Source: Candidatus Poribacteria bacterium
GTDB taxonomy: Bacteria; Poribacteria; WGA-4E; WGA-3G
Length of the DNA: 64,000 nt
NCBI GenBank assembly: GCA_028824685.1
Contig: JAPPCZ010000055.1
Span: forward strand, 4,673 to 68,672
Reading direction: 5' to 3'
In this document: one piece after another, positions 4,858-32,076 of the stretch
How the letters are laid out: every line of letters starts with the position of its first letter
Position numbering within the stretch: position 1 is the stretch's first letter
Notes under the pieces: generated by a model
What the model was told of the DNA's origin: nothing
Seen by the model: only the letters and a program-made list of their open reading frames with translations
The model's database searches: none
Program-made: the position numbers and the translations under genes

Positions 4858-4923
4858 TGTAGGAGCGATCTCCGAATCGTGATTAAATACTTTGATAGTC
4901 GGGAATCGGAGTTTCTTCCTACA
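4858..4923. repeat. Palindromic dispersed repeat, family 1 (tgtaggagcgatctccgaatcg ... cgggaatcggag..tcctaca), copy A
   Basis: Inverted-repeat arms tgtaggagcgatctccgaatcg and cgggaatcggagtttcttcctaca. The same element recurs at 28070-28126, and variant forms at 14193-14234, 31898-31923 and 32013-32076. Confidence 0.7.
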
Positions 4924-5005
4924 AATCAAACTGTCAAATTAATTGTAAATTCCACTATAGCAATTCTTGGAACTTACACAAATGAAAATGTGAGAGTAAC
5001 CCACA

Positions 5006-6793
5006 ATGCCAGAATCCAATCAACCCGTAGACTATTTAGAACGGCTTCGTCATTCTACCGCACACATTATGGCGTATGCCGTGCAACAACTGTTTCCTGA
5101 CGGTGAACATACCGTCAAACTTGCAATCGGTCCTCCAATAGAAAACGAATTCTATTACGATATGGAGGTGCCGCGTCCAATTACGCCTGACGATTTTCCT
5201 GAAATCGAAAAGCACATGAAGGCGATGATTAAAGCCAATGTGCCTTTTGTACAGGAAACTTGGACTTTTGAACAAGCACGTGAGTGGTTTGCTGAACGCA
5301 ACCAAACATTTAAACTTGAATTAATAGATGGTATTTCTGACCGCGAAGTCAGCGCGTCTGATGAAGGCGTTGCTGACGAAGGTGTCTCTATTTATCACAA
5401 CGGAGATTTTACTGATCTTTGTAAGGGACCGCATATTGAAAAAACAGGTGAATGCAGACATTTCAAGCTGCTCCGTGTTTCAGGTGCGTATTGGCGTGGT
5501 GATAGCAATCGTGAGCAGTTACAGCGGATATACGGCACAGCGTGGGAAACAAAAAACGACCTACAGGCATATCTGAAACAACGTGAAGAGGCAGCAAAAC
5601 GTGACCATCGGAAATTGGGACGCGAATTGGAACTTTTTCAGATGCACCCCGAATCTCCGGGTAGTGTGTTTTGGCTTCCAAAAGGTGCGTTTATTTACAA
5701 TCATTTGTCCGAAAAAGTGAGAAAACTCTATCTCAGTGAAGGTTACCAAGAGGTTCGGACACCGCTCATCTATGATAGCAGTTTATGGGAAACTTCGGGA
5801 CATTGGGAGCACTTCAAAGACGATATGTTCCTGATTGAAAATGAAGAAGGCGATCCAACGAGTGCGCTGAAACCGATGAATTGTCCGGCACACATGTTAA
5901 TTTATAAAAGCGTACGCCACAGCTATCGTGATTTACCATATCGGTTATATGACCAAGGTGTGTTGCATCGGAATGAAGCAACAGGAACGTTGAGCGGTTT
6001 ATCTCGTGTTCGTCAATTGTGTCAAGACGATGCACACAATTTCGTTACCGAAGACCAAATTGCAGATGAATATGAACGCATCCTTGGGCTTTTCCAACGT
6101 ATCTACGGCACATTTGATCTGCCGTTCCGATGCGATTTCAGCACACGCAATCCTGATAAATTTATGGGGGATGTAGATGTCTGGAATCGTGCTGAAGATA
6201 TACTTGAATCGGTGTTAAAAAACAATCAGATTGAGTACACTGTAGACCCAGGAGAGGCAGCGTTTTATGGACCAAAACTTGATTTTCAGGTTCGGGACTC
6301 GCTCAACCGAGATGTGCAATGTGCTACTGTCCAACTCGATTTTCAGTTACCCGAACGGTTTGACTTAATTTACATTGCTCCTGATGGTTCTGAAAAGAGA
6401 CCTGTAGTTATCCATCGTGCGATTTGTGGGAGTTTTGAAAGGTTCATTGCTATGCTCATTGAGCATTATGCGGGTGCTTTCCCCACATGGCTTTCCCCTA
6501 TTCAATGTGTTGTTATGACAATCAGTCAAAAATTCGTAGATTACGCGACAGAAATTCAGCAGATTTTGTTACAGAAAAACTGCCGTGTTGTGTTAGATAA
6601 TAGTGATCATAAAATTGGAGCGAAAATACGTCAAGCCCGTTTGCAACGGGTGCCGTATATGTTAATCATTGGTGAACGTGAACAACAAAATCGAACTGTC
6701 AGTGTCCGAAGCCGTGATGAAGGAGACATCGGTGCAATGCCGCTCGATAGTTTCGTTGACAGAATTGTTCGTGAAGCTGATTTAGATTTCTAA
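5006..6793 (+). CDS. thrS: Threonine--tRNA ligase (ThrRS), short form lacking the N-terminal TGS domain
   Basis: Class II aaRS motifs and the ThrRS-specific catalytic core (RDHRKLGRELELF, KPMNCPAHMLIYK, RDLPYRLYDQGVLHRNE, RVRQLCQDDAHNF). The N-terminal editing-domain start RLRHSTAHIMAYA begins right after the Met. An in-frame stop at 4997-4999 precludes an upstream TGS domain. Confidence 0.9.
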   Translation: MPESNQPVDYLERLRHSTAHIMAYAVQQLFPDGEHTVKLAIGPPIENEFYYDMEVPRPITPDDFPEIEKHMKAMIKANVPFVQETWTFEQAREWFAERNQTFKLELIDGISDREVSASDEGVADEGVSIYHNGDFTDLCKGPHIEKTGECRHFKLLRVSGAYWRGDSNREQLQRIYGTAWETKNDLQAYLKQREEAAKRDHRKLGRELELFQMHPESPGSVFWLPKGAFIYNHLSEKVRKLYLSEGYQEVRTPLIYDSSLWETSGHWEHFKDDMFLIENEEGDPTSALKPMNCPAHMLIYKSVRHSYRDLPYRLYDQGVLHRNEATGTLSGLSRVRQLCQDDAHNFVTEDQIADEYERILGLFQRIYGTFDLPFRCDFSTRNPDKFMGDVDVWNRAEDILESVLKNNQIEYTVDPGEAAFYGPKLDFQVRDSLNRDVQCATVQLDFQLPERFDLIYIAPDGSEKRPVVIHRAICGSFERFIAMLIEHYAGAFPTWLSPIQCVVMTISQKFVDYATEIQQILLQKNCRVVLDNSDHKIGAKIRQARLQRVPYMLIIGEREQQNRTVSVRSRDEGDIGAMPLDSFVDRIVREADLDF

Positions 6794-6884
6794 TAAATAT
6801 ATTATTTATTGATGCAGGTTACTCGCCTGCTGTAGGAGTAGATGATTTATCTACTCCTAAAAAAACATTAAAAGGAGTAATGAA

Positions 6885-7487
6885 ATGTATAAAGTATTGT
6901 CTTGCCTAATGCTGATCGGGATTATCATATTCAGCGGGTGTGGTCCCTCCAAACAGGTTACCCGTATTGATAGCGATACCGTCGTTGACCTCTCAGGTAG
7001 ATGGAACGATACAGATTCCCGTATGGTCGCTGAAAATATGATTGCTGACTGTTTAAGCCACATTTGGATTAACAATCACAATAAGTCATCTGGTGAAAGA
7101 CCCGTTGTGATTGTAGGTGGAATCCGTAATAAGAGTACAGAACATATCCCCACACAAACGTTCATCGGTGATATTGAACGAGCATTCGTCAATTCGGGAA
7201 AGGTTGAGGTTGTTGCCAGTAGTAGCGAACGTAGTGAACTTCGAGAGGAACGTGCGGATCAGAGTGAAAACGCAGCCATTGAAACTATCAAACAGATGGG
7301 GCGTGAAGAGGGTGCTGATTACATGTTGACAGGCGAAATCAATACCATTGAGGATCGCGAAGGTGGAAAACAAATCGTGTTTTATCAGACTGATCTCACA
7401 TTGACAAATATTGAAAGCAATATAAAAGTTTGGATCGGGGAGAAAGAAATTAAAAAGTTTATTGGTAAAGGCAAGTTCAAATTGTAA
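6885..7487 (+). CDS. Lipoprotein, LpoB-like (penicillin-binding protein activator LpoB/COG3417-like) candidate
   Basis: Lipobox LIGIIIFSGC. About 200 aa. Central region VVIVGGIRNKS...FIGDIERAFVNSGKVEVVAS and C-terminal GADYMLTGEIN resemble the LpoB family pattern. RBS aaaggagtaa. The assignment is from memory, not alignment. Confidence 0.4.
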   Translation: MYKVLSCLMLIGIIIFSGCGPSKQVTRIDSDTVVDLSGRWNDTDSRMVAENMIADCLSHIWINNHNKSSGERPVVIVGGIRNKSTEHIPTQTFIGDIERAFVNSGKVEVVASSSERSELREERADQSENAAIETIKQMGREEGADYMLTGEINTIEDREGGKQIVFYQTDLTLTNIESNIKVWIGEKEIKKFIGKGKFKL

Positions 7488-7568
7488 ATCTTTTTGTATG
7501 AACTTTCCTGTTGAAGTATCGGGCGGGTGCGTATGCCCGCCCATTATAATTTAAAAACCTGAAATACA

Positions 7569-8912
7569 ATGACCAAAATTTATTCTTTTCTATTTATTAT
7601 TTTTTTAGCAACAGGGTGCGCTGGCTATAAGTTTCAAGATGTTAAAACCGACTTGGAAACAGGTAAGCCAGCAGATGCCTACAACTATCTTAAAAAACAT
7701 GCACCGAAAAAATCGGATATTCCACATCATTATGAATTGGGATTGACTTCTCATTACGCGAACTTATTTCCAGAAAGCAGTAAAGCATTTGAACAAGCAG
7801 AAATGATCGCAGAGGATCGCTTCACCAAAAGTGTTTCAAAAGAGGCTTTATCGCTTATTACCACTGATAAACTCCGCCCTTATGCTGGCACCCAATACGA
7901 GAGGTTGTTGAGTCACTATTACCATGCCCTAAACTATTTCTATCTGAATAAGTTGGACGATGCGTTGGTAGAATGCCGCCGTGCTACCAATTTAATTCAA
8001 TATTTCAAAGGTGAAGATAACGAATATAATTACTTTGGAACAGGATTTTTGGCGTGCTTTTCTGGCATGGTATTTGAAGCAGCGGGAGAGTGGAATGATG
8101 CTTTTATATCATATAGGCAGGCAGAAGAATACTATAAAAATGCTGCAAAGATAACTGGTGTACCAATGCCTAAAGATGTTGGTCATTCTTTGGTGCGTCT
8201 ATCACGCAAACTCGGTTTTACTGAGGAATATGAGCGTTACCGAAAACAATATAACGAGCCGTCACGAATTCCTGAAAACCATGGCGAGTTGATCCTCTTT
8301 TATGAAACAGGTTATGTCCCACGTAAACGCGAGGAGACCTTAACCTTTCCTATCCTCAAAACCGATAAAGTTGACAAAGATAATGCCAGTGAGTTTGCTG
8401 TCACGCTTAGAACACGCGAAGGGTTAGTTGTTGAGGAAATAAAATTGGAATATCTTTTACACGTGGCAGTGCCAGTAATGCGTTCCAATCGTCCACAGTT
8501 CGCTGGGATTCGAGTTTCTGCTGGAGAAGAGATAGCCGATGGTGTGTTAATAGAAGATATTGAGACCATCGCAATTGAAACACTTGAAGCTGAACGTCCT
8601 ATAACCCTTATTCGAACTTTAGTGCGTGCCATACTAAAATACTTAACATTCCGTGAAGCAAAGAAGCAAAATAAGGTTTTAGGAGCAGTTGTTAATCTCG
8701 CGGGTGTGCTGACTGAAAGTGCGGATACACGTTCATGGCAAACACTGCCAAATCAGATTTTCATGGTGCGGATGTCACTGCCTGCTGGTACTCACAAGGT
8801 CAATCTCTCTTTTTTAAATGCTAACAGAAATATTAGAAAAAGTGAGACTTTACAAGAAATTAAAGTTTCTTCAAATCAGATTTCGTTTCTCAATTACCGA
8901 ACATATAGATGA
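7569..8912 (+). CDS. Hypothetical lipoprotein (447 aa, TPR-like N-terminal region), possibly COG3014-like partner of the preceding lipoprotein
   Basis: Lipobox FLATGC. Sits directly downstream of the LpoB-like gene on the same strand. No catalytic motifs recognised. Confidence 0.35.
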   Translation: MTKIYSFLFIIFLATGCAGYKFQDVKTDLETGKPADAYNYLKKHAPKKSDIPHHYELGLTSHYANLFPESSKAFEQAEMIAEDRFTKSVSKEALSLITTDKLRPYAGTQYERLLSHYYHALNYFYLNKLDDALVECRRATNLIQYFKGEDNEYNYFGTGFLACFSGMVFEAAGEWNDAFISYRQAEEYYKNAAKITGVPMPKDVGHSLVRLSRKLGFTEEYERYRKQYNEPSRIPENHGELILFYETGYVPRKREETLTFPILKTDKVDKDNASEFAVTLRTREGLVVEEIKLEYLLHVAVPVMRSNRPQFAGIRVSAGEEIADGVLIEDIETIAIETLEAERPITLIRTLVRAILKYLTFREAKKQNKVLGAVVNLAGVLTESADTRSWQTLPNQIFMVRMSLPAGTHKVNLSFLNANRNIRKSETLQEIKVSSNQISFLNYRTYR

Positions 8913-8956
8913 ACCTATCTTAATAACAGAAATCTAATCTCAATAGAACGAAAGAC

Positions 8957-10117
8957 ATGCAACGTATTTACCTTGATTACAATGCCACAACCCCACTACG
9001 CCCTGAAGTCCGAGATGCGATGATGCCGTTTCTGACAGAGGCATTCGGTAATGGCTCCAGCATTCACGCTTATGGGCGTGAAGCACGCAACGCAATTGAT
9101 ACAGCGCGTGAACAGGTAGCAGAACTCATCGGTGCTAAAAGTCCCAGTGAAATTGTGTTTACCGGAAGTGGCACCGAAGCAGATAACCACGCGATTAAAG
9201 GACTAACCGAGCTGCAAAAGAGTCGGGGAGAAGGAAATCACATCATCACTTCGTCAGTGGAACATCACGCTGTTTTGCATACCTGCCAATATCTGGAGCA
9301 GCGCGGTTTTGAGGTAACATATCTTCCGGTAGATAGATACGGGCGGATTCAAATTGAGCAACTCAGTTCTGCTATTCGCGATAGCACAATTCTGATTTCT
9401 ATTATGCATGTCAACAACGAAAACGGTACTATCCAACCGCTGGAAGAAATTTGTCAGGTAGGACAAGAACACGAAATTCCCGTGCATACCGATGCTGTGC
9501 AATCAATTGGTAAATTGGACGTTAATGTGCAGGGACTTGGTGTTAACCTATTGACTCTTTCTGGACACAAAATATATGCGCCAAAAGGTATTGGCGTATT
9601 ATACATCCGCCGTGGTGCTCGTTTAGCAAACCTTGTTCACGGGGGTTCACATGAACGCAATAGACGTGCGGGGTCTGAAAATGTACCTGCTATCGTTGGA
9701 GTTGGCGTTGCAGCAGAACTTGCAAAACGAGAACGTGACGTATACGCTAAACACTTGAACAAATTAACCCATCGGTTACGCGAAGGGCTTGACACACACA
9801 TTGAGCGATTGCACTACAATGGACATCCCGAATACTGCGCCCCTGGTACACTTAACGTCTCTTTTGAGGCAGTGGAAGGTGAAAGTCTTATCTTGCGACT
9901 GGATATGGAAGGAATTTGTGTGTCAACAGGGTCCGCGTGTACGTCAGGGTCTATGGAACCGTCACATGTGCTTGCTGCCCTTGGATTACCTCCCAGATTA
10001 GCACAAGGTACAGTTAGATTTTCGCTCGGAAGAAATACGACTGAAGAAGAAATAGATACTGTAATCGCTAAACTACCTAAAGTGATAAAACAGATGCGGA
10101 CGTTGTATAGAAGTTGA
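8957..10117 (+). CDS. Cysteine desulfurase, NifS/IscS family (PLP-dependent class V aminotransferase)
   Basis: LDYNATTP N-terminus, SSVEHHAVL, HTDAVQSIGK (PLP lysine region), LTLSGHKIYAPKGIGVLY, and SGSACTSGS active-site Cys loop near the C-terminus. Confidence 0.85.
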   Translation: MQRIYLDYNATTPLRPEVRDAMMPFLTEAFGNGSSIHAYGREARNAIDTAREQVAELIGAKSPSEIVFTGSGTEADNHAIKGLTELQKSRGEGNHIITSSVEHHAVLHTCQYLEQRGFEVTYLPVDRYGRIQIEQLSSAIRDSTILISIMHVNNENGTIQPLEEICQVGQEHEIPVHTDAVQSIGKLDVNVQGLGVNLLTLSGHKIYAPKGIGVLYIRRGARLANLVHGGSHERNRRAGSENVPAIVGVGVAAELAKRERDVYAKHLNKLTHRLREGLDTHIERLHYNGHPEYCAPGTLNVSFEAVEGESLILRLDMEGICVSTGSACTSGSMEPSHVLAALGLPPRLAQGTVRFSLGRNTTEEEIDTVIAKLPKVIKQMRTLYRS

Positions 10118-10243
10118 TAGAAACCTATAAACTAAAAGTATTAAACATCGTAATAGATGAATTTCATTGCTACACAAGTTTTTGCATGGTATGATAATTA
10201 TGATAGGATTGCAACTTGGACATACATTATAAAGGAAATTCAG

Positions 10244-11067: not shown

Positions 11068-11082
11068 CCAGCACTAACACCA

Positions 11083-13785: not shown

Positions 13786-13913
13786 TTCTGAATAATGGTA
13801 TTACACTATTTCATACTATAGTTTGGACAATTCTTGTCTCGTGGATGTTGAGTTTTAACGGAAAATCTATTTTTCTACGAGTTCGCATATCAATGAAACA
13901 CAGCGAAAATACC

Positions 13914-14054
13914 GCACTCCAGCGGAGTGCTATGTGTCGGAAATCACATACCGCTCCGCCAAATCAACGGTATGAATGCCATTTAGGCATTCCCCGGAGC
14001 GGATATGTCGGTTCATATTGTGACTATAAACATATTGCTCCGCTGGAGCAAAGA
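13914..14054. repeat. Dispersed repeat family 2 (gcactccagcggagtgctatgtg ... cacataccgctccgc ... ctataaacatattgctccgctggagcaaaga), copy 1
   Basis: Near-identical shorter copy at 50788-50893. Internal inverted repeats (ctccagcggag / ctccgctggag) suggest a MITE-like foldback element. Confidence 0.65.
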
Positions 14055-14192
14055 AAGTTTCCATTTTGTCTGTCGTGTGTTGATTTAGCAACATAAATCG
14101 TGAACTAATTTTTAAAATCAACTCACGTATGAAGAAATTGTCCAAACTATAGTATTTCATAAATCGGTTAGAAAAATGCAATACTTTCTTTT

Positions 14193-14234
14193 GTAGGAGC
14201 GACCTCCTGGTAGCGACCGGGAGGTCGCTCCTAC
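14193..14234. repeat. Palindromic dispersed repeat family 1, copy B (variant tgtaggagcgacctcc ... ggaggtcgctcctaca)
   Basis: Perfect 16-bp inverted arms around a 10-nt centre. Shares the tgtaggagcga / tcctaca termini with copies at 4858, 28070, 31898 and 32051. Confidence 0.7.
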
Positions 14235-14449
14235 AGAGAAACTCAAAATCGGAATGACACTTTGCCAATTAGAAATGGTATAATGAGAATTCTAAGCAAA
14301 TTATATGCCAATACAAAAATATCGTGCTTCCGAGAAAACGCACTTAAGCACTCACTACAGTTGCACGATAAGGGGCAGAACAAATTAAAAAGCACAAATT
14401 CGGGCAGCTTTATCAGATTAGAACAGAATAAGGTATCAGATTTATAATT

Positions 14450-16321: not shown

Positions 16322-16333
16322 TTCCGACCTACC

Positions 16334-16915: not shown

Positions 16916-16918
16916 ATA

Positions 16919-18378: not shown

Positions 18379-18504
18379 CTATTTCTCCAACCCGATAGGG
18401 CAGGACTTATGCGTAAATCTTTTCATAAATTGACGCATAATGTGCTGTTTCAAACCGAACTTACAGCCACGTATTAACATATTTTGGATTTCACTAATTA
18501 GGTA

Positions 18505-19272
18505 TTAGGTGCGGGCTTGCAAGCGCGCGAGTTGTTCTCGGAGTTTTGCGGCTTCCGCTTCTGCCTGTTCAGCGCGTGCTTCGGCAGTTTCTGCGCGTGT
18601 GATTTCCTGTTCAGCGCGTGCTTCGGCAGTTTCTGCGCGTATGGCTTCTTGTTCAGCAAGCGATAGCGCTGACTCCGCAGGTGTCTGAAGCCAATCATTT
18701 GCAGCTGGGTCATAAATACCTAAACCCACATTATCAACATGGAAGTCTAAACCCAGAGCAGAAGAACGTAAACCGCCAGTCTGACCTGCTGAAATCGGAA
18801 CATACACATTATCAACCAACTCAAAACCCATCAGGGCAGAGGGTAAATACAATCCCTCCGCATCATATAAAAAGTAGTCTTGTATACCCAATAAACCGTA
18901 AAGTTCCAACTTTTTACCTAAGTCGTTTCGGTATGTGTTTTCGCTTGAAAACTCCATCGCGAAATCAGGCACTTTCCCTTCTTCCCAGACCTTATACGTC
19001 CGCCGGAGTTTCTTACCTAAACCGAAAGTGACCAGAACATCTGGCGCAACTGATTTACGCGGGTCTCCCTCCACATAATACATCAGTATATCACCAGACA
19101 CATAGACTTCCGGTCTTTCTTCAAAATGCGTATCAAGAACTTGTAATGTTCGGATAAGGATTCGTCTGTGAAGGTCGCTGACTGCCATCGGCTTTCCGTC
19201 CGTTTCTGGATAAATGTCTGACTCATCTGTAGGTACGGCAGGGATATCAAGTCCTTTTAGATAAGTAGTCAT
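18505..19272 (-). CDS. Uma2-family (DUF820) protein with C-terminal Ala/Glu-rich tandem-repeat tail
   Basis: Uma2 core (YPETDGKPMAVSDLHRRI...VYVSGDILMYY..PDVLVTFG). C-terminal AETAEARAEQE(I/A)TRAETAEARAEQ encoded by a 42-bp tandem DNA repeat at about 18564-18650. Confidence 0.65.
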   Translation of the reverse strand: MTTYLKGLDIPAVPTDESDIYPETDGKPMAVSDLHRRILIRTLQVLDTHFEERPEVYVSGDILMYYVEGDPRKSVAPDVLVTFGLGKKLRRTYKVWEEGKVPDFAMEFSSENTYRNDLGKKLELYGLLGIQDYFLYDAEGLYLPSALMGFELVDNVYVPISAGQTGGLRSSALGLDFHVDNVGLGIYDPAANDWLQTPAESALSLAEQEAIRAETAEARAEQEITRAETAEARAEQAEAEAAKLREQLARLQART

Positions 19273-19665
19273 CGGTATTTCTCCTTTGCCACAAGATGTG
19301 TGAAAATAGAGTCGGAGGTTGATACACAGTTTACATTATGTGTTAATTGTAACTGAAAATTGAGAAGGTGTCAAGCACATTTAGAAGCATAGTGTGTGTA
19401 AAGTTTTCGTACAAAGAAAGCATCTTGTCGGTTGAGTTTCGCTTCGCCCTCTACGATCTACATATTGAATTAGGACGTTTCACATCACATTTAGGACGTT
19501 TTGCACGTCCTAGTGACGTGCAGAAGTCAATCAGGACAAGGATTGTGACGTGGATTTTGAGATTTTTTGTTTTTTCTTCTCTTTTTCTTTAGAAATTTTG
19601 CGTATATTGAAAACATTATTTAATTGTGTGATAATAATATTAACATAAACATGTTACAGCGTATC

Positions 19666-20172
19666 TCATAAATATTTTAATGACATACGTATGCAAGCAA
19701 GAAGGACAAAACCTAAATAATTTTCGGCATGATATTCCCACCGCACAACCAAACGCCGGAAGTCTTCACACCAACTGAAAAAACGCTCCACTTTGAAACG
19801 GCGTTTATACCGGCGTAGACGACGACCATCCTGTGTCGCAGACCGCTTCCGATTCTTTTTATGCGGTGCTACCATTTCAACACCCCGACACCGCAACAAC
19901 GCATCTAAAGGATCCGAGTCATAGGCTTTGTCCCCAATCAACACCGCAGGGTTTTCAGATGTCCAACACGCATCCAATACAGGTTCAACCAAGCGCACTT
20001 CATGACAAGAAGCATCTGTAATCAGAACACTCACAGGTCTACCAGACTTCTCTGTAATCGCTACCAGTTTCGTCCCTTTGCCACACTTCGTCTTGCCTAC
20101 ACACTCACCACCTTTCTTCGCAGGAACGAACTTCGCATCAATACAGCACTCACTCATATTTATTTTTTTTTC
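19666..20172 (-). CDS. IS5-family transposase OrfB (DDE catalytic part, -1 frame relative to OrfA)
   Basis: DDE_Tnp_1-like: VAITEKSGRPVSVLITDASCHEV...VLIGDKAYDSDPLDALLRCRGVEMVAPHKKNRKR...RRYKRRFKVERFFSWCEDFRRLVVRWE. The 5' limit is set at the frameshift tract; the six-frame track extends it to 20328. Confidence 0.7.
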   Translation of the reverse strand, partial: EKKINMSECCIDAKFVPAKKGGECVGKTKCGKGTKLVAITEKSGRPVSVLITDASCHEVRLVEPVLDACWTSENPAVLIGDKAYDSDPLDALLRCRGVEMVAPHKKNRKRSATQDGRRLRRYKRRFKVERFFSWCEDFRRLVVRWEYHAENYLGFVLLACIRMSLKYL

Positions 20173-20431
20173 GTTTTTCAAGCATTTCTGTGAGTGCCAT
20201 TTGAACTTTTTCAAGCGTTCCATCCAATGACCATTGCTGAAAACGACGATGACAAGTTTGATAGGGGGGATACTTTTCTGGTAAATCCCGCCAAGGTGCC
20301 CCTGTTCGCAACACCCAGAGTATCGCATCTAACACTTCTCTATTACCACGCCAAGGTCTCCCGGGTTTACCCGATGGCGGTTCGTCCAATAGTGGTTCAA
20401 TAATCTCCCATTCCTTATCACTTAATTCCAT
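20150..20431 (-). CDS. IS5-family transposase OrfA (N-terminal DNA-binding part; joins OrfB by programmed -1 frameshift)
   Basis: MELSDKEWEIIEPLL...GRPWRGNREVLDAILWVLRTGAPWRDLPEKYPPYQTCHRRF is typical of IS5/IS427-group OrfA. Ends in an A-rich slippery tract. Confidence 0.75.
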   Translation of the reverse strand: MELSDKEWEIIEPLLDEPPSGKPGRPWRGNREVLDAILWVLRTGAPWRDLPEKYPPYQTCHRRFQQWSLDGTLEKVQMALTEMLEKRKKNKYE

Positions 20432-20618
20432 TCAAATCATCTCCTAACTCTTAGTAGAAATAGATAGAGTCTAACAGAAATGATCGATAATTAAAAGAAA
20501 TTTGACACCAGTTAATATTTATGAGATACGCTGTACTTATTGCGAATCATTTTATACTTAAAATCAGCGTAATCTGTGAAATCCGTATAATCCGTGATTC
20601 AGACAAAATACCACCCGA

Positions 20619-22493: not shown

Positions 22494-22678
22494 CAGTCGT
22501 TACTCCTATTCCAATTCAAAATCTTATGTATCAGCGAAGCATAAAAAATACATCATTTGGGAGTGATGGCGTTTGTAGTCGCGCAATTCATTGCGCCTCT
22601 TTAGATCCGACTACGGCACGCGGAGCGTGCCTACTACTTTTAAAGCACATTTGACATTAAATCATTTATATATACACA

Positions 22679-24588: not shown

Positions 24589-24869
24589 CTTTTCACCTTA
24601 CTTGTACAGTTTGCAAGGTCACTTTGCTTGCAATTCATCAACAAATGTGTTATCTCAAGTTGTATTAATTATGCTATATATCTGTTATACTTGCAAGGCA
24701 ATTTCACGAATTATAAATGTTTCAAATTGACTTTACTCTAAAAAAATGTTAGCATATTTTACAATTACACTGATGGTAACACACGGTATTGAAGATTTGC
24801 TTTAAGCCTCTGAAACATTATTTAGGTAAAATCTCTTACTTTCACACAACCCTAAAATGGAGATACGTT

Positions 24870-26925: not shown

Positions 26926-27050
26926 ACTGAACTAACTATCAATCAGTCAAGCCAGACGCATATAAATTTAAAAGGGATGACCTACTGTAGTGAATCTACA
27001 CTTGGTCATCCCTTCGTGCTTAAGATGGCTTTATGGCTAACCATTTGATG

Positions 27051-28001
27051 TTACGCATGCGGTGTATTGTCAGGGTCTGCCAACTGATTAATATATGCTT
27101 CTTGATAGGTCTCCCAATTATCAGTAGGTGGAATATTAAAAAGTCCAGAGGTCCAAACTTCAGGCTTCTTTTGAATCCGCATCAACATATCGCGAGCATT
27201 AAGATAACGGCAATAATCATCAAGATTTTCTATAGTGATATTTTTCTCCAGAAAAGTTTGAAGCCACTCACTGCGTGGATAACGTTCGTCCATTTCAGGA
27301 AGTGATAGCAATTTTCCACTGTACTTCAAAACCTCAACACCGTTCATCACATAAGAGTTGCTTATTGTAGTCGCTGCATGCCGTTCGTTGTACTGCTTAT
27401 CAAAACGTCCTATCAGTGATTGCACTCTATTGGGTGCGGTGGGTTGTTCAACCGATCTATGGGTTTCAATATGAACTCTTTCTGAATGGTTATCAGCAGC
27501 ATCTCTGAGTTCTTCAATCCGTTCACGAATTCTTTCTATTCGTTCATCCGAATTATCCCGGTATTCCTCCGCTTTTTCACGAATTCTCTCAATCTGTTCT
27601 TCCGCCGCTTCAGCGTTTTGTTCAATCTGTTCGTGAATTCTTTCAATCTGCTGTTCGGCGTTTTCTCTGGTTTGTTCAAGCCTCTCCTGAATTCTTTCAA
27701 CATCTTCTTCAATTTTATGAGCGTATTCTTCTGATTCTTCTTGAAGTTTCTGAATCTGTTCTTCAACAGTTCTCCGATGTTCTTCCAAACCATCATGTAA
27801 CCTTCGGATATCTTCTTCTGCCGATTCCGCTTCCTGATGAATCTGATTTTGAATTCTCTCAATCTGTTCTTCAGCAGCGTTTCTATGTTCCTCTAATTGA
27901 TTGTGGATTTTCTCAACGGATTCTTCCGCAGTCCTTTCGTTTTCCTCCAATCGATTTTGAACTTCGTTGATTAGTTCCTCTGCATGTTCAAAGATGTTCA
28001 T
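27051..28001 (-). CDS. Hypothetical coiled-coil protein with about 10 tandem E-x-Q-I-E-R-I-type repeats and a C-terminal globular domain
   Basis: Repeats EEQIERIQNQIHQ, EEQIQKLQEESEE, EQQIERIHEQIEQ, EEQIERIREKAEE, DERIERIRERIEE. No enzymatic motif. Confidence 0.4.
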   Translation of the reverse strand: MNIFEHAEELINEVQNRLEENERTAEESVEKIHNQLEEHRNAAEEQIERIQNQIHQEAESAEEDIRRLHDGLEEHRRTVEEQIQKLQEESEEYAHKIEEDVERIQERLEQTRENAEQQIERIHEQIEQNAEAAEEQIERIREKAEEYRDNSDERIERIRERIEELRDAADNHSERVHIETHRSVEQPTAPNRVQSLIGRFDKQYNERHAATTISNSYVMNGVEVLKYSGKLLSLPEMDERYPRSEWLQTFLEKNITIENLDDYCRYLNARDMLMRIQKKPEVWTSGLFNIPPTDNWETYQEAYINQLADPDNTPHA

Positions 28002-28069
28002 AACTATTCTCCATATTGCAAAATAAATTAAGAAAGGGTGCGATTCGTTTTAAACGATTTGCCGACTCT

Positions 28070-28126
28070 TGTAGGAGCGATCTCCGAATCGCGACATATA
28101 ATCGGGAATCGGAGTTCCCTCCTACA
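28070..28126. repeat. Palindromic dispersed repeat family 1, copy C
   Basis: tgtaggagcgatctccgaatcgcgac...atcgggaatcggagttccctcctaca; near-identical arms to copy A at 4858-4923. Confidence 0.7.
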
Positions 28127-28169
28127 CTACAGACAATATGTCGGGAGTTAGACAAATGTCACGACTACT

Positions 28170-29699
28170 TTAAAATGTGCTTTCGCTGTTGGTAATAGGA
28201 CACCATCGCGCCATGAGTAGATAATCAAAAAGGACTGATTCTGCTTCTGGTGTGCTAATCCGTTTGAGCGCATGGATAGAATTGTCCCTCACGTACCGGT
28301 TTTTATCCGAAAGCGAATCCTTTAAAACAGGAATCGCATCACTTGAAGCAGGACCAATTTGTGCTAATGCTAATGCAGACTCAAAACGGACTTGGACATC
28401 ATCATCGTTCGCTAATCTATCAATCAACGTTGGCACTGCAGGCGCTGCAGATGCACCTATTGCCCCGAAGGCTTCTGGAATATAACGTCTGACTTCAACG
28501 TTGCTATCCTCAGACCTTTCTATCAATGCAGAAACCGCTGACTCTGCTGTACTTCCGATCTGTGCTAAAGCGTAAGTTGCTTCAACTCGCACCCCATCAT
28601 TTTCATGTTCCAATGCTTCGCAGAGTGCTGGCACTGCGGGCTCTCCAACTGCTGCTAACCCATACGCCGCCATACGGCGCGTCGGACCATTTTCATCAGC
28701 AAGTTTTTCAATCAATGCCGACACAGCAGGTTCACCAATCGCACCCAACGTATAGGCGGCATTCAAACGAGCAGGTTCATAGTTGTTCCGCAAGGTTTCA
28801 CTCAACATCGGAATTGCATCGGCTGCGGATTCCCCTAATAACCCCAATTCATCGGCAGCATCAGAACGGACAGTAGGATCTTCATCGCTCAATGCTTCAA
28901 TATGTTTTGCCAAATTGCCGTTAGCCTGCTGTCCTGCATATCCATTAGAATTGCCAGTCATCCATTTCCAAACATGCCGCCATGTCGTTTCATGTCTTTT
29001 AGCAGCAAGGTTACCATTTACATCAAGTCCATCGGTTTCCCACTTTGTATTTTCCACGTTCCATTCCGGTTCTCGTGGTTCATCCAAGCGGATAAACTGA
29101 AACTTCATCATGTAGCGAGTCTTATCGGTATGATTTGCCATTGCACGATGCCACAAATCAAAGTGAATGATTGATACCGTCCCCGCTTCACCGTTCAGTG
29201 CAGTTTCACCATCGTTGTTTTCAGTAATCCTGTTACTGTAGTATTGCGTTCCCGATAGGATTGCTGAGGGACCGATTTCAACTGGCGTATCCTGTGGATA
29301 GTAGAACGCCATCGCCCAGCGAGGTAGGTGATGCCGAACCTTCTGATGTCCCCAGTAGCTATCTTTATGGAAACCTTGTCCACCACTGTGTGCTGCATTC
29401 CGATGTGGATGCCGATGTGAATGCATCACATAGTTCTGTCCTAAAATACTGGTAAATGCACCGCGAACCACAGGGTCATCAAACACTGCTTGTAACTCTG
29501 GCACTCTCGGGAAGATATTATTTCCCAAGTTACCTTCTTTTTCTGTATATTCCTGTGTTTTACGATAGATTGTCTCGTGAACACTGCGCGGCAAATCCGT
29601 TTTCACTGTAACATACCCGTTTACAATGAAATCCCGCATCTGTTCATCGCTGAATAAATTAAAATGTGTTTGCATCATCAAATCTCCGTTTCTTATCAA
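28170..29699 (-). CDS. PhyH-like (phytanoyl-CoA dioxygenase-type Fe(II)/2OG oxygenase) domain fused to C-terminal HEAT/PBS-lyase repeats
   Basis: N-terminal PhyH-like region with His ligands (HRHPHRNAAHSGG...HKDSYWGH). C-terminal about 7 HEAT-like repeats (DPTVRSDAADELGLLGESAADAIP, EPARLNAAYTLGAIGEPAVSALI, NGPTRRMAAYGLAAVGEPAVPAL, NDGVRVEATYALAQIGSTA). Confidence 0.6.
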   Translation of the reverse strand: MIRNGDLMMQTHFNLFSDEQMRDFIVNGYVTVKTDLPRSVHETIYRKTQEYTEKEGNLGNNIFPRVPELQAVFDDPVVRGAFTSILGQNYVMHSHRHPHRNAAHSGGQGFHKDSYWGHQKVRHHLPRWAMAFYYPQDTPVEIGPSAILSGTQYYSNRITENNDGETALNGEAGTVSIIHFDLWHRAMANHTDKTRYMMKFQFIRLDEPREPEWNVENTKWETDGLDVNGNLAAKRHETTWRHVWKWMTGNSNGYAGQQANGNLAKHIEALSDEDPTVRSDAADELGLLGESAADAIPMLSETLRNNYEPARLNAAYTLGAIGEPAVSALIEKLADENGPTRRMAAYGLAAVGEPAVPALCEALEHENDGVRVEATYALAQIGSTAESAVSALIERSEDSNVEVRRYIPEAFGAIGASAAPAVPTLIDRLANDDDVQVRFESALALAQIGPASSDAIPVLKDSLSDKNRYVRDNSIHALKRISTPEAESVLFDYLLMARWCPITNSESTF

Positions 29700-29924
29700 G
29701 ATTAGGTGATTTTGTCACTATTACGCGATATTGCGATAGTGTACTTGAATTTATCTGTTACTATTTTACTTGACTTTTAGTTATTTGTCATATAATTTTT
29801 CAATAAAATCCCGAATTTATTACCATAATAGCAAAACAGTTTACAGAACCCTATATTTTGTGTATGATTAACGCAGAGTCAGATTTCCGCTTCAAATTCC
29901 TACCGACACGAAAGTGAGCACATA

Positions 29925-31841
29925 TTGATTCAACAACGAACCCGGACAAGTCTATCTTGGCGCGCAGTAATCATTGGCTTGATGTGTGCCACATTAGAAT
30001 GTCTCCTCGCCCCCTACAATGATTATGTCATTCGCAATATTTTCCTTGCCGGCGGACACTTTCCTGTCGGTCCCTTCTTTGTGCTTACTGTATTTGTTTT
30101 GGGAATTAACGTTATCTTAAAGCAGATTAATCCCAAATCTGCGTTTTCACCGGGTGAACTGATAACAATCTGGTGCATCATGCTTGCACCTGCAGGTATC
30201 CCGTCTTCGGGTATGATGCGCTATGCGCTCAGTCCGATGATTGCTTACAAGTATCTTGCTACACCAGAAAACGATTGGGAGTCATTGTTTTACCACTACA
30301 TTCCACACTGGCGTGTTGTGCACGATGAAGCCGCAATTAGCTCTTTTTATGAGGGATTATTTGCTGGAGAGGTGGTGCCGTGGGGTGCTTGGATAACACC
30401 GATACTCGTCTGGAGTGCTTATGTCATCGTCATCTACTTCGTGATGATCTGCCTCTCTGTATTACTGCGTAAGCAGTGGGTAGAATATGAACGCTGCGCT
30501 TTTCCACTTGTCAAACTACCGGTTGAGATGGCAGTGCAAGGCAGCGGTAGACTCGGACCGCTCTTTAAGAACAGCGTGTTCTGGTTTGGCGTTGCATTTC
30601 CAGTGTTTCTTCATACGATGAATGGACTCCATACGTTTTTCCCATCCGTTCCACATATCCCGCGCGATTTTTGGCTCAATCACTATTTCAACGAAAGACC
30701 GTGGACTGCATTGCGTCCATTTCAAGTCGTCATTTTTTGGTCTATGGTGGGGTTTAGTTATCTGCTTACTTTAGAAGTCTCGTTCAGTATCTGGTTTTTC
30801 TTTGTGTTTTACAAGCTGCAATGTCTGATAGGTGTAATGCTCGGTTTTCAACTGACTTCCGGGCCGGGTGTGCAATGGACAGGAAAATCTTTTAGTGCTG
30901 CACAGGAGGCAGGGGCATGTTTAGTATTTGTCGCCATTGCATTATGGAAAACGCGGCATCATATCAAAAACATGTTCCAGAAAAGTTCCTCTGATGAGGC
31001 ACTGCCCTACGGTGTTACGGTCTTTGGTCTAATTGGAGGAATCTGTGTTCTCGTGTTTTTCAATCACCTGATGGGCATGTCTATACTTTTTGCTATCGGT
31101 TTTGTCTTGTTCCTGCTTGCTATGTATGTCGTTTTAACATGGCAGGTAATTAACGGTGGTATTCCATTTATCAATCCATCTTTTTCACCACAAAGTTTTT
31201 TTCTAACGACACTTGGCACTTCAAGAATACACCCATCAACATTAACATCGTTAATGATGCATCCCGTCTGTTTAACGCTTGACCTACGCGAATTTATGAT
31301 GCCAAACATCATGAATGGACTAAAAGCAACAGACGAAGCACGCGTCAAGCGACGACAGCTGCTCATCGCTATGGCGGTTGCGATGGTCATCGGTCTGGGC
31401 GTTTCTTATTATTCAGCGATCAAAGTTGGGTATGCCCACGGCGCGCCTTATATGGGTGGCGGATGGTTTATGCGGCAACTCGAAGGATTACTCACAAGTC
31501 CAAAAACCAGCACCAATTGGACAAATACTGGATTTATCTTGTTCGGAGGTGGGTTCACAGGGTGGTTAATGTGGATGCGGCAGACGTTTGTTTGGTGGCC
31601 CCTGCACCCTCTCGGCTATACGATGTTAAGTTCATGGGCAACGTTCAAACTGTGGTTTTCAATCTTTTTAGGATGGGGAATGAAATTTGCGATTGTGAAA
31701 TACGGCGGACTGAAGGCATATCGCCAAGCGCGACCGGCATTCCTCGGTTTGGTCATCGGAGAGATGTTGTGTGCTGGTTTATGGGCAATTGTTGGAATGT
31801 CAACTGGGATTAGTAGTGGATACAGGATATTGCCCGATTGA
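29925..31841 (+). CDS. Hypothetical polytopic integral membrane protein (638 aa, at least 12 predicted TM helices)
   Basis: Long hydrophobic segments throughout; Trp/Tyr-rich loops. No transporter signature recognised. Confidence 0.4.
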   Translation: MIQQRTRTSLSWRAVIIGLMCATLECLLAPYNDYVIRNIFLAGGHFPVGPFFVLTVFVLGINVILKQINPKSAFSPGELITIWCIMLAPAGIPSSGMMRYALSPMIAYKYLATPENDWESLFYHYIPHWRVVHDEAAISSFYEGLFAGEVVPWGAWITPILVWSAYVIVIYFVMICLSVLLRKQWVEYERCAFPLVKLPVEMAVQGSGRLGPLFKNSVFWFGVAFPVFLHTMNGLHTFFPSVPHIPRDFWLNHYFNERPWTALRPFQVVIFWSMVGFSYLLTLEVSFSIWFFFVFYKLQCLIGVMLGFQLTSGPGVQWTGKSFSAAQEAGACLVFVAIALWKTRHHIKNMFQKSSSDEALPYGVTVFGLIGGICVLVFFNHLMGMSILFAIGFVLFLLAMYVVLTWQVINGGIPFINPSFSPQSFFLTTLGTSRIHPSTLTSLMMHPVCLTLDLREFMMPNIMNGLKATDEARVKRRQLLIAMAVAMVIGLGVSYYSAIKVGYAHGAPYMGGGWFMRQLEGLLTSPKTSTNWTNTGFILFGGGFTGWLMWMRQTFVWWPLHPLGYTMLSSWATFKLWFSIFLGWGMKFAIVKYGGLKAYRQARPAFLGLVIGEMLCAGLWAIVGMSTGISSGYRILPD

Positions 31842-31897
31842 GACGGGACAGTGATTGTAGAACGGTTCCAGGATATTCAGTTCAGAGAATCCTCTTC

Positions 31898-32076
31898 TGT
31901 AGGAGCGACCTCCTGGTCGCGACACCAACATATAAAAACTATGGTAGAGATTAGAATTAACGCTACATTCCTGAACTGTGAATCAACGCAGAATGCGCTT
32001 TTGGCATTCTGCGGGAGGGAACTCCGATTCCCGACTGCTCCTAAGTTTCTGTCGCGATTCGGAGATCCCTCCTACA
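31898..32076. repeat. Composite/degenerate cluster of family-1 repeat fragments plus a perfect 9-bp-stem hairpin
   Basis: tgtaggagcgacctcctggtcgcgac (31898-31923). Hairpin gcagaatgc-gcttttg-gcattctgc (31988-32012). gggagggaactccgattcccgac (32013-32036) and gtcgcgattcggagatccctcctaca (32051-32076). Lies between convergent genes. Confidence 0.6.
31988..32012. terminator. Candidate bidirectional stem-loop between convergent genes (9-bp perfect stem)
   Basis: gcagaatgc / gcattctgc stem with a 7-nt loop; no canonical U-tract, so an intrinsic terminator function is uncertain. Confidence 0.25.

What the first reader, a model, noticed from the sequence alone, without database searches (positions are those of the whole stretch)
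4858..32076. Family of short palindromic dispersed repeats (tgtaggagcgaYctcc...ggag..tcctaca) in intergenic regions, with two sub-variants
Copies occur at 4858-4923, 14193-14234, 28070-28126 and 31898-31923, plus fragments at 32013-32076. Copies 4858 and 28070 share the arms tgtaggagcgatctccgaatcg / cgggaatcggag..tcctaca with different cores. Copies 14193 and 31898 share the variant tgtaggagcgacctcctggt(a/c)gcgac. All lie between genes, often between convergent or divergent pairs. This is the signature of a REP/MITE-like element family that can act as terminators, mRNA stabilisers or recombination sites, and it is probably specific to this lineage.
Basis: seen in the sequence. Interest (0 to 1): 0.55.

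Follow-up and report, generated by a model that had tools for sequence, protein, structure and literature searches.

The report
REP hairpin repeats inside mobile mini-elements
The short palindromes are real: they are REP-type hairpin repeats, a known kind of small bacterial mobile DNA, found here in an uncultured sponge symbiont (Candidatus Poribacteria), and the commonest form rides inside a 136-base element that has recently jumped in front of an essential gene.

Summary
TGTAGGAGCGA (up to 1 mismatch) occurs 7 times in the window against 0.47 expected. The four sites are intergenic.

Each arm is a classical GTAG-type REP: TGTAG head, GA, a 5-6 bp stem, a loop, then a CGAC tail. The stem is kept by compensatory changes. 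Two arms facing each other form a REPIN-like doublet.

The family is spread across dozens of Candidatus Poribacteria genomes. An identical 26-nt REP flanks a RAYT transposase gene in a Sulfuricella genome.

- The common 66-nt doublet is the core of a ~136-nt palindromic unit, TATAGTG...CACTATA (window 4824-4959; 31940-32111).
- In four independent filled/empty comparisons this whole unit is the inserted piece, and three of the four empty sites carry TA at the junction.
- Copy A sits in the thrS leader and is missing from three related genomes. Copies B, C and D are also missing from relatives.
- The unit's ends are promoter-like, and their first 11 bases match the Neisseria Correia repeat.

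No RAYT gene was found in 1.84 Mb of Poribacteria DNA sampled around REP sites, so the mobilising enzyme is unknown.

Verdict: a new member of a known kind with an unusual composite form; moderate interest.

The parts
4824..4959 (.). Copy A. Complete 136-nt composite unit (TATAGTG...CACTATA): end module, 66-nt REP doublet, end module. It is inserted in the thrS 5' leader.
   Evidence: blastn gives 80-90% identity over 4823/4824-4959 to copies in more than 12 other Poribacteria genomes. The unit is absent from the orthologous site in L122, L123 and L124, and the joined flanks align across the junction.
4824..4857 (-). Left end module of copy A, facing outward. Promoter-like: GTGTCA, 18 nt, TATAAT.
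   Evidence: nhmmer of the end-module profile; promoter scan scores 10 of 12.
4858..4883 (+). REP arm of the GCGAT/ATCGC type (here ATCGT): TGTAGGAGCGATCTCCGAATCGTGAT.
4898..4923 (-). REP arm of the GGGAA/TTCCC type, degraded head: TGTAGGAAGAAACTCCGATTCCCGAC.
4924..4959 (+). Right end module of copy A, facing thrS. It ends 47 nt before the ATG at 5006.
   Evidence: nhmmer; sequence.
14192..14235 (.). Copy B. 44-nt near-perfect palindrome made of two overlapping type-2 REPs (TGTAGGA-GCGACC-TCCY-GGTCGC-GAC), at 14192-14217 (+) and 14210-14235 (-).
   Evidence: Folding energy -23.6 kcal/mol as DNA and -40.4 as RNA, z about -9. Absent from the same intergenic region in L122 and L123.
14236..14290 (+). 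Flank shared with other type-2 doublets: AATGACACTTT..ATTAGAAATGGTATAAT, promoter-like.
   Evidence: The same flank sits next to 44-nt doublets in L070 and L086.
28070..28126 (.). Copy C. 'Naked' 57-nt type-1 doublet without end modules, arms 28070-28095 (+) and 28101-28126 (-).
   Evidence: Folding energy -17.1 kcal/mol as DNA and -30.3 as RNA. No REP is present in the corresponding intergenic region of L125 or L126; that region is 111 nt in L125 against 168 nt in the window.
31898..31923 (+). Solo type-2 REP: TGTAGGAGCGACCTCCTGGTCGCGAC.
   Evidence: It folds as .......((((((....))))))... at -7.4 kcal/mol. It differs by one loop base from the REP that flanks the Sulfuricella RAYT gene.
31940..32111 (.). 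Copy D. 172-nt composite unit: end module 31940-31971 (-), nested repeat, REP arm 32011-32035 (+, head disrupted), REP arm 32051-32076 (-), end module 32077-32111 (+).
   Evidence: nhmmer span 172 nt; blastn to L095, L083, L118, L065 and L101. Absent in L125 and L126, where the intergenic region holds a plain hairpin (L125, 65 nt between the genes) or a plain hairpin plus an IS (L126).
31979..32013 (-). Nested copy of a third repeat family (CGCAGAATGCCAAAAGCGCATTCTGCGTTGATT), inserted in the CTCC/TACA head of the REP arm.
   Evidence: The same insertion position is seen in L083, L116, L118, L057, L109 and L122.

Best explanation
These are GTAG-type REP sequences, a known kind of non-autonomous bacterial mobile DNA, in a Candidatus Poribacteria genome.

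Anatomy:
- Each 26-nt unit has a TGTAG head, a GA dinucleotide, a 5-6 bp stem, a 4-6 nt loop and a CGAC tail.
- Two units facing each other with heads outward form a REPIN-like doublet, 66 nt for type 1 and 44 nt for type 2.
- The type-1 doublet always combines one GCGAT/ATCGC arm with one GGGAA/TTCCC arm, so the doublet is copied as a unit.
- In most type-1 copies the doublet is the core of a ~136-nt palindromic element. Its 35-nt ends read outward ...ATGTAAAnTTAATTnTAnAATCCACTATA.

Shown:
- This whole element is what inserts.
- In three of four independent comparisons the empty site has TA at the junction (the fourth has CA), and filled sites carry TA, or a one-base variant of it, at both ends.
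- Insertion is recent. All four window copies are missing from related genomes, and copy A landed between the conserved thrS promoter-like site and the thrS start codon.

Inferred:
- A trans-acting transposase moves them.
- The conserved head and tail combined with freely covarying stems is the signature of recognition by a REP-associated tyrosine (HUH) transposase (RAYT), which binds the folded single strand.
- The stable hairpins (-27 to -40 kcal/mol as RNA) and the outward promoter-like ends can affect neighbouring genes as side effects: 3'-end protection or read-through block, and new transcription start sites.
For: Enrichment and distribution:
- 7 hits against 0.47 expected.
- At least 118 stretches, nearly all Poribacteria, in a one-genome-per-species scan. 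A further 120 or more in metagenomes.

REP anatomy and covariation, on 74 distinct units chosen by head and tail only:
- 81.5% of cells paired against 67.3% in shuffles.
- 62 double-sided changes against 22; 0 of 500 shuffles reach either value. Slid controls give 22-49% paired.
- Further stems on the same head and tail: GCGAGC/GCTCGC, GGGGTT/AACCCC, GGGATT/AATCCC, GGGGCA/TGCCCC.
- The template matches published Pseudomonas and Xanthomonas REPs (TGTAGGAGCGGCCTTGCGTCGCGAA, GTAGGAGCGCACCTGGGCGCGAC; PMC2817692). It also matches the GTAG-1 description: a dinucleotide between GTAG and the stem, and a 3-bp tail (PMC3733652).

Link to RAYT: an identical 26-nt REP (TGTAGGAGCGACCTCCCGGTCGCGAC) forms doublets on both sides of a 153-aa RAYT gene in Sulfuricella L104.

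Doublet census over 1.84 Mb:
- 91 head-out doublets; 58 of them are 66 nt long.
- 47 hetero-arm type-1 doublets and 0 homo-arm.
- Of the 47, 28 have end modules on both sides and 15 on one side.

Composite unit: sizes peak at 132-140 nt.

Insertion polymorphisms of the whole unit, with the junction bases:
- Window A against L122, L123 and L124: TA in L122 and L123, TG in L124.
- L207 against L190, L222 and L229; L093 against L225; L225 against L093: TA in the first two, CA in the third.

Location: only 17 of 125 sites fall inside crude ORFs, against a coding fraction of 0.82.

Other mobile-DNA signs: nested insertions and tandem REP arrays. Folding energies.
Against: - No RAYT or other Y1 transposase gene was found in the window or in 232 Poribacteria-type stretches (1.84 Mb) chosen because they carry these REPs. 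Methods: tblastn, a RAYT HMM on all ORFs, and Pfam on 20 REP-flanked ORFs. If every genome had a RAYT flanked by these REPs, roughly one to a few should have been sampled.
- TA-flanked insertion of a unit with 35-nt inverted ends is what DDE-type (IS630/Tc1-like) MITEs and Correia elements do. It is not what is described for RAYT or IS200/IS605 enzymes. However, an element that inserts 3' of TA and itself ends in TA would look the same.
- The end module also occurs next to other repeat families and alone (31 of 93 hits).
- No clean empty site was obtained for a naked REP or doublet.
- Copy number per genome could not be measured because the scans were truncated.
Confidence: 0.7

Rival explanations
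1. This is a Correia-like, TA-targeting MITE moved by a DDE transposase (IS630/Tc1-like or IS5-like). On this reading the REP doublet is only its internal hairpin or a captured passenger. Poribacteria have no cognate RAYT, and REPs spread by hitch-hiking.
For: - The inserted unit is the whole 136-nt palindrome, with TA at both ends and TA at the junction of three of four empty sites.
- It has 35-nt inverted ends, and the first 11 nt (TATAGTGGATT) equal the start of the Correia repeat given in PMC5039591.
- The same end module brackets other cargo.
- A 339-nt element in the window has similar ends, TAGTTTGGACAATT.
- No RAYT was found in 1.84 Mb.
- A TA-flanked IS5-family insertion sequence is present in the window.
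Against: - No autonomous element with these ends was found. All paired modules span 117-634 nt, or enclose an ordinary gene.
- A passive internal hairpin would not keep an invariant GTAG head and CGA tail while its stems covary.
- Naked REPs, naked doublets (copy C) and tandem REP arrays exist without the end modules.
- The window's IS has unrelated ends.
Confidence: 0.3
2. These are host regulatory modules, not selfish DNA. On this reading the hairpins serve as bidirectional terminators or 3'-end stabilisers and the end modules serve as promoters. They would be kept by selection and spread mainly by recombination or vertical descent.
For: - The hairpins are very stable.
- Copy D replaces the plain hairpin found between the same convergent genes in L125 and L126.
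- 42 of 78 oriented end modules face a co-oriented gene start, 16 of them at 22-48 nt.
- The end modules carry a perfect or near-perfect TATAAT.
Against: - All four window copies are absent from related genomes whose flanks are conserved, so they are recent insertions and not conserved regulators.
- No T-run follows the doublets, and no terminator was called at a doublet apart from one 5-bp arm hairpin inside copy C.
- 36 of 78 end modules face the 3' end of a gene.
- The -35 part is weak: 3-4 of 6.
- Copy D's two modules both point into gene ends.
Confidence: 0.1
3. The matches are due to chance, to one duplicated segment, to an assembly artefact, or to a CRISPR-like array.
For: Some loci hold regular arrays, for example L043 with 44/88-nt spacing, L055 with 38 nt and L114 with 39 nt.
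Against: - Strong enrichment over shuffles.
- Flanks are unrelated between copies.
- The same contig sequence was recovered from an independent sample (L002, 99.99% identity).
- Copies occur in many long-read chromosomes.
- The arrays have 12-18 nt near-identical 'spacers', and no cas genes were seen.
Confidence: 0.01

Closest known systems
GTAG-1 type REPs of Pseudomonas, Xanthomonas, Thauera and Thioalkalivibrio (Nunvar 2010, PMC2817692; Di Nocera 2013, PMC3733652)
   Same: - (T)GTAGGAGCG head, a dinucleotide before the stem, a short GC-rich stem with an unpaired middle, and a CGA(C/A/T) tail.
- Stems kept by complementary changes.
- Extragenic location.
- Singletons, head-out dimers and clusters all occur.
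   Different: - The host is a candidate phylum of sponge symbionts with about 42% G+C. No paper in the searched library links Poribacteria with REP or RAYT.
- The loop CTCCGA and the fixed pairing of two different arms.
- Most doublets sit inside a longer palindromic unit.
- No RAYT found so far.
REPIN-RAYT systems (Bertels and Rainey 2011, PMC3116915; bioRxiv 10.1101/2021.07.10.451892)
   Same: - Two inverted REPs with a short spacer, copied as one unit.
- A narrow length distribution.
- An abundance that differs between related genomes.
   Different: - The defining single-copy RAYT flanked by the REPIN was not found in the sampled Poribacteria DNA.
- The inserted unit extends about 35 nt beyond each REP and is TA-flanked.
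Anabaena variabilis GTAG-15 dimers inside long palindromes TATAGGAnT...AnTCCTATA (Di Nocera 2013, PMC3733652, section on association with other repeats)
   Same: - REP dimers sit at the centre of a longer palindrome that starts with TATAG and ends with CTATA.
- For A. variabilis the paper reports that target palindromes without a REP were not found.
   Different: - The palindrome sequence, the REP family and the phylum all differ.
- Here, insertion of the whole unit is shown by empty sites.
- Here, the outer module also occurs with other cargo.
Correia repeat-enclosed elements of Neisseria (PMC5039591)
   Same: - Small palindromic units that carry promoters, according to PMC5039591.
- A size of about 100-155 nt and TA target duplication, both recalled from my own knowledge and not read in a paper here.
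- The inverted ends start with the same 11 bases, TATAGTGGATT.
   Different: - Beyond base 11 the ends are unrelated.
- Correia elements have no GTAG REP doublet in the centre.
- They are described as restricted to Neisseria.
- An IHF site was not looked for here.
- The 11-nt match was noticed after the fact and may be chance or convergence.
E. coli BIMEs (clusters of alternating REPs)
   Same: Clusters and tandem arrays of REP units of two arm types occur (L085, L055, L043, L114).
   Different: - Most copies here are single doublets within a defined 136-nt unit, not mosaic arrays.
- Binding of IHF, gyrase or Pol I was not tested.

Membership tests
REP, GTAG super-family (GTAG-1 type) | Conserved GT(A/G)G tetranucleotide at one end of the unit | tested here: met
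   T1, G2, T3, G5, G6, A7 and G8 are at least 90% conserved and A4 is invariant in 74 distinct units. The definition is from PMC2817692 and PMC3733652.
REP, GTAG super-family (GTAG-1 type) | Adjacent imperfect palindrome (stem-loop) whose pairing is kept by complementary changes | tested here: met
   Columns 8-13 pair with columns 18-23. 81.5% of cells are paired against 67.3% in shuffles; 62 cells have changes on both sides against 22; 0 of 500 shuffles reach either value. Pair 12-19 is seen as UA, AU, CG and GC.
REP, GTAG super-family (GTAG-1 type) | GTAG-1 specifics: an unpaired dinucleotide between GTAG and the stem, and a conserved 3-bp motif at the other side | tested here: met
   GA follows GTAG. 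C23, G24 and A25 are invariant, but that was a selection criterion. Both type-1 arms and type 2 share the CGAC tail.
REP, GTAG super-family (GTAG-1 type) | Short (20-40 bp), extragenic, high copy number | tested here: inconclusive
   The unit is 26 nt. 108 of 125 sites lie outside crude ORFs, against a coding fraction of 0.82. The local density is 4 sites in 64 kb in the window, 3 in 21.8 kb in L122, and 0 in 71 kb of four other genomes.
REPIN-RAYT system | Two REPs in inverted orientation with a short spacer, replicated as a unit | tested here: met
   There are 91 head-out doublets, 58 of them exactly 66 nt long. Type-1 doublets are 47 hetero-arm and 0 homo-arm.
REPIN-RAYT system | A cognate RAYT (Y1/HUH transposase, PF01797) in the same genome, flanked by the same REPs | tested here: inconclusive
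   None was found in the window or in 1.84 Mb from 232 REP-bearing Poribacteria-type stretches. Whole genomes could not be scanned. The feature is met outside the phylum: Sulfuricella L104 has a RAYT flanked by the identical type-2 REP.
MITE (TIR element; Correia-like) | Terminal inverted repeats and small, uniform size | tested here: met
   The unit has 35-nt inverted end modules. Paired spans peak at 132-140 nt, and the variants of 155-206 nt carry nested inserts.
MITE (TIR element; Correia-like) | Insertion polymorphism with target-site duplication (TA for Correia and IS630-type elements) | tested here: met
   Four independent filled/empty comparisons were found. Three empty sites have TA at the junction and one has CA. 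Filled sites have TA on both sides, with TG on one side in one case. A true duplication cannot be told apart from insertion 3' of TA by an element that ends in TA. At the window site 2 nt (GA) also differ.
MITE (TIR element; Correia-like) | A parent autonomous element with the same ends that encodes a transposase | tested here: not met
   No pair of end modules in the sampled DNA encloses a transposase gene. The sample is limited.
Correia repeat-enclosed element (membership proper) | The 26-bp Correia inverted repeat TATAGTGGATTAACAAAAACCGGTACGG or one of its variants | tested here: not met
   Only the first 11 nt match; the rest differs (against PMC5039591). This is a resemblance, not membership.
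Intrinsic terminator | GC-rich hairpin followed by a T-run | tested here: not met
   The scan flags none of the doublets. One 5-bp arm hairpin in copy C is called on the minus strand, with a weak tail.
CRISPR array | Regular repeats separated by unique spacers, with cas genes nearby | tested here: not met
   The window copies are dispersed. Arrays in L043, L055 and L114 have 12-18 nt near-identical spacers.

The most novel reading that the evidence does not exclude
In Poribacteria, REP doublets may no longer depend on a RAYT. They would spread as the core of a TA-targeting, Correia-like miniature element with outward promoter-like ends. This would be a hybrid between the two best-known classes of small bacterial repeats. 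It would give REPs a second route of dissemination, and it would hint at which kind of enzyme moves Correia-type ends.
Probability: 0.2. Interest if true: 0.6.

Novelty: new member of a known kind. Interest (0 to 1): 0.4.

Why it matters
REPs and REPINs have been studied almost only in Proteobacteria. Here the same architecture, and for one variant the same 26-nt sequence, turns up in an uncultured sponge-symbiont phylum.

The finding comes with clear, datable insertion polymorphisms and a composite form that inserts as one piece. That gives three things:
- A marker system for strain-level comparison of Poribacteria genomes.
- A natural case for asking what defines the mobile unit of a REPIN and which enzyme moves it.
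- Concrete examples of small mobile DNA landing in the leader of an essential gene (thrS) and between convergent genes, where effects on expression can be tested in sponge metatranscriptomes.

It is not a new kind of system.

Tried and rejected
Searches that found nothing:
- Rfam and tRNA scans of the window.
- RAYT search by tblastn with an E. coli YafM sequence recalled from memory and with the Sulfuricella RAYT, by a HUH...YxxxNP regex, and by an HMM built from 120 RAYT homologues. The only hit was the Sulfuricella locus.
- I picked the most AT-rich-coded RAYT homologue (P0086) as a possible Poribacteria gene. Its contig carries a different REP, TGTAGGAGCGGCCCCTGGCCGCGAA, so it is not the cognate.
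- Pfam on 20 ORFs lying between REP sites 330-1600 nt apart showed ordinary genes and no transposase.
- Search for an autonomous parent with the same ends. One 1167-nt span encloses a normal gene.

Analyses that were not informative:
- Empty-site search for naked REPs and doublets. The filtered pass matched repeat modules to each other and gave no clean orthologous pair.
- The intergenic regions around copies B, C and D are too diverged or rearranged in the relatives to define junctions to the base. Only absence can be stated.
- MAFFT misplaced the gap in the thrS alignment. The junction was read by eye and from blastn of the joined flanks.

Ideas considered and dropped:
- CRISPR-like arrays, an assembly artefact and a single duplicated segment.
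- The end modules as strong sigma-70 promoters. The -10 is perfect but the -35 matches only 3-4 of 6 positions, and only one of the modules in the window passes the scan.

Full report
**Observation**

- TGTAGGAGCGA with up to one mismatch occurs 7 times on both strands against 0.47 expected. None of 100 dinucleotide-preserving shuffles reaches 7.
- The mirror motif GGAGNNNNCTCCTACA gives 10 hits against 2.3 expected.
- Copy B is 14192-14235.
- The 'fragments' at 32013-32076 are a full doublet in reverse orientation.
- No Rfam family and no tRNA is present in the window.

**Origin**

- The window is part of a 94.8-kb metagenome scaffold. The same sequence was assembled from a second sample (L002, 99.99% identity over 13 kb).
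- Orthologues of its ThrRS are named Candidatus Poribacteria by NCBI.
About 105 of them come from roughly 50 Poribacteria assemblies.
- A metagenome scan with a type-1-specific pattern stopped at 120 stretches.

**Anatomy of the short unit**

Read from the TGTAGGAG end, every arm is 26 nt.
- Type 1 has two arm forms: TGTAGGA-GCGAT-CTCCGA-ATCGC-GAC and TGTAGGA-GGGAA-CTCCGA-TTCCC-GAC.
- Type 2 is TGTAGGA-GCGACC-TCCY-GGTCGC-GAC.

The four positions at which the two type-1 arms differ are exactly the ones that keep each arm's own small hairpin paired. In the long doublet hairpin they produce four symmetric mismatches.

I tested the hairpin on 74 distinct units selected only by head and tail.
- The hairpin (columns 8-13 with 18-23) is paired in 81.5% of cells, against 67.3% in shuffles and 22-49% in slid controls.
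- It has 62 double-sided changes against 22, and 0 of 500 shuffles reach either value.
- Other stems occur on the same head and tail: GCGAGC/GCTCGC, GGGGTT/AACCCC, GGGATT/AATCCC and GGGGCA/TGCCCC.

This is the published definition of a REP: a GT(A/G)G head, a palindrome and an unpaired middle (PMC2817692). More narrowly it fits the GTAG-1 type, which has a dinucleotide before the stem and a 3-bp tail (PMC3733652). Listed Pseudomonas and Xanthomonas REPs such as TGTAGGAGCGGCCTTGCGTCGCGAA follow the same template.

**Link to RAYT**

One non-Poribacteria hit, a Sulfuricella MAG (L104), has a 153-aa ORF between two doublets whose REP is TGTAGGAGCGACCTCCCGGTCGCGAC. That REP is identical to a common Poribacteria type-2 unit. 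Its homologues carry PF01797, and several sources name them 'REP element-mobilizing transposase RayT'. So this REP sequence is a bona fide RAYT substrate type in at least one genome.

I found no RAYT in Poribacteria DNA. This covers the window, about 105 eight-kb tiles, five orthologue loci and 120 metagenome stretches, in total 1.84 Mb chosen for carrying these REPs. None of 20 ORFs bracketed by REP sites is a transposase. This is a sample and not whole genomes, so the point stays open. By a rough estimate of mine, if every genome had a REP-flanked RAYT, one to a few should have been caught.

**Doublets**

In the 1.84 Mb there are 519 REP units and 91 head-out doublets. Lengths peak sharply at 66 nt (58 cases) and 44 nt (8 cases). 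Type-1 doublets always join one GCGAT arm to one GGGAA arm: 47 hetero-arm and none homo-arm. The doublet is therefore copied as a unit, as in REPINs. Tandem arrays of single REPs also occur (L043, L055, L085, L114).

**The longer unit**

blastn of the window against the other genomes aligns 4823/4824-4959 at 80-90% identity, not just 4858-4923. The alignments have sharp ends. Both sides of most type-1 doublets carry an outward-facing 35-nt module, GAnnAnATGTAAAnTTAATTnTAnAATCCACTATA.
- A profile of it finds 93 copies in the first data set. 62 are next to a REP head and 31 are next to other repeat families or alone.
- Paired modules span 132-140 nt. Classes of 155-206 nt carry a nested third repeat.
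- Of the 47 type-1 doublets, 28 have the module on both sides and 15 on one side.

A precedent exists. Di Nocera et al. describe Anabaena variabilis REP dimers inside palindromes TATAGGAnT...AnTCCTATA, with no empty palindromes found.

**Mobility**

ThrRS orthologue loci from three other Poribacteria genomes (96, 93 and 88% protein identity) keep the thrS leader but lack the whole 136-nt unit.
- The conserved leader includes a promoter-like TTGGCA-17-TAAAAT (window 4755-4783) and the stretch GACGTTAAGTCTAT.
- The joined window flanks align straight across the junction at 86, 81 and 77% identity.

Three more independent filled/empty pairs were found among the fetched loci: L207 against L190, L222 and L229; L093 against L225; and L225 against L093.
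- In all of them the indel is the whole composite.
- Over the four comparisons the empty sites carry TA at the junction in three and CA in one. Filled sites have TA on both sides, except TG on one side in L207.
- This looks like TA target duplication with the element proper being TAGTG...CACTA. An element that inserts 3' of TA and ends in TA would give the same picture.

The other window copies are also missing from relatives.
- Copy B is absent from L122 and L123.
- Copies C and D are absent from L125 and L126. There the convergent DUF6785 and laminin-G genes are separated by a plain hairpin in L125 (65 nt between the genes) and by a plain hairpin plus an IS in L126.

Density differs between genomes: 4 sites in 64 kb here, 3 in 21.8 kb in L122, and none in 71 kb of four others.

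**Context and possible effects**

- REP sites avoid coding sequence: 17 of 125 fall inside crude ORFs, against a coding fraction of 0.82.
- They show no clear preference for convergent or divergent spacers: 57/20/18 against a background of 360/87/68.
- The doublets fold strongly. As RNA, copy A is -27.5, B -40.4, C -30.3 and D -32.3 kcal/mol, with z from -5.4 to -8.5.
- No T-run follows them, and the terminator scan does not call them.
- The end modules end in TATAAT-like hexamers with a weak -35. One passes the sigma-70 scan at 10 of 12.
- 42 modules face a co-oriented gene start, 16 of them at 22-48 nt, and 36 face a gene end. That is what a palindromic element inserted at random in spacers would give, with some copies well placed to act as promoters.
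- Copy A's right module ends 47 nt before the thrS ATG.

Promoter, terminator and stabiliser roles are inferences and were not tested.

**Comparison with known systems**

- Membership in the GTAG-type REP family is met on every sequence criterion tested. Copy number per genome could not be measured.
- Membership in a REPIN-RAYT system is open because the RAYT is missing from the sample.
- The composite meets the MITE criteria of inverted ends, uniform small size and insertion polymorphism with TA. No parent element was seen.
- Its first 11 bases equal the start of the Correia repeat, TATAGTGGATTAAC... (PMC5039591). The rest differs, so it is not a Correia element. The match was noticed after the fact.
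- No paper in the searched library connects Poribacteria with REPs or RAYTs.

**Verdict**

It is a new member of a known class (GTAG REPs/REPINs) in a new phylum, with a composite, TA-flanked mobile form that has one published parallel. The open question of interest is which enzyme moves it.

Noticed in passing
window 13815-14153: A 339-nt element with perfect 18-nt inverted ends, ACTATAGTTTGGACAATT, lies next to copy B. A related copy sits at a different position of the same intergenic region in L122 (about 19130-19468), so it looks mobile. Its ends (TA)TAGTTTGGACAATT resemble the composite's (TA)TAGTGGATTTTACAATT. Inside it are two other small hairpin repeats.
   Followed up: partly
window 4570-4640, 31979-32013 (-), 51311-51328: A third repeat family, ...GAATGCCAAAAGCGCATTC..GCGTTGATT, gives 4 hits against 0.31 expected. 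In copy D, and in several other genomes, it is inserted at the same point of the REP head (CTCC/TACA). This suggests either a target preference or an amplified sub-family.
   Followed up: partly
window 22615-22634 (-) and 56069-56088 (+): A second GTAG-type REP family is present: GTAGGCACGCTCCGCGTGCC and GTAGGCACACTCCGTGTGCC. The two copies differ by a compensatory pair in the stem. Both lie just downstream of genes.
   Followed up: partly
window 13914-13930 and 50788-50804: The identical 17-nt hairpin GCACTCCAGCGGAGTGC occurs twice, against 0 expected. It is also seen in L011 and L046.
   Followed up: no
window 19655-20535: An IS5-family insertion sequence of 881 nt with perfect 22-nt inverted ends, TACAGCGTATCTCATAAATATT. 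It has two overlapping ORFs (DUF4096 and DDE_Tnp_1), probably joined by a frameshift. TA is present at both outer ends. Its ends are unrelated to the composite's.
   Followed up: partly
window 34298-43000: A run of six or seven tandem paralogous genes of about 390-670 aa, whose nucleotide repeats recur about every 1165-1210 nt. The repeat motifs (TGGGA/TGGAA, 'SPDG') look like WD40 repeats, but these genes were not scanned against Pfam. Eukaryote-like repeat proteins are typical of sponge symbionts (my own knowledge).
   Followed up: no
window 27473-27916 (inside ORF 27051-28001, minus strand): A 54-nt periodic repeat inside a 316-aa protein. The protein has weak apolipoprotein-like and YtxH-like hits, which suggests an amphipathic-helix repeat protein.
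   Followed up: no
window 4755-4823 and the orthologous stretches of L122, L123 and L124: A conserved thrS leader: TTGGCA-17-TAAAAT, then CGTAAACA..AAAAAAGACGTTAAGTCTAT. It is kept across genomes with 88-96% ThrRS identity while the surrounding spacer is not. It is possibly a regulatory leader, and in this genome it is now split from the gene by the 136-nt insertion.
   Followed up: no
L126 8051-9403: In a related genome, an IS with DDE_5 and DDE_Tnp_1 domains (450-aa transposase) occupies the same convergent spacer where the window has copy D. The spacer may be a repeated landing site.
   Followed up: no
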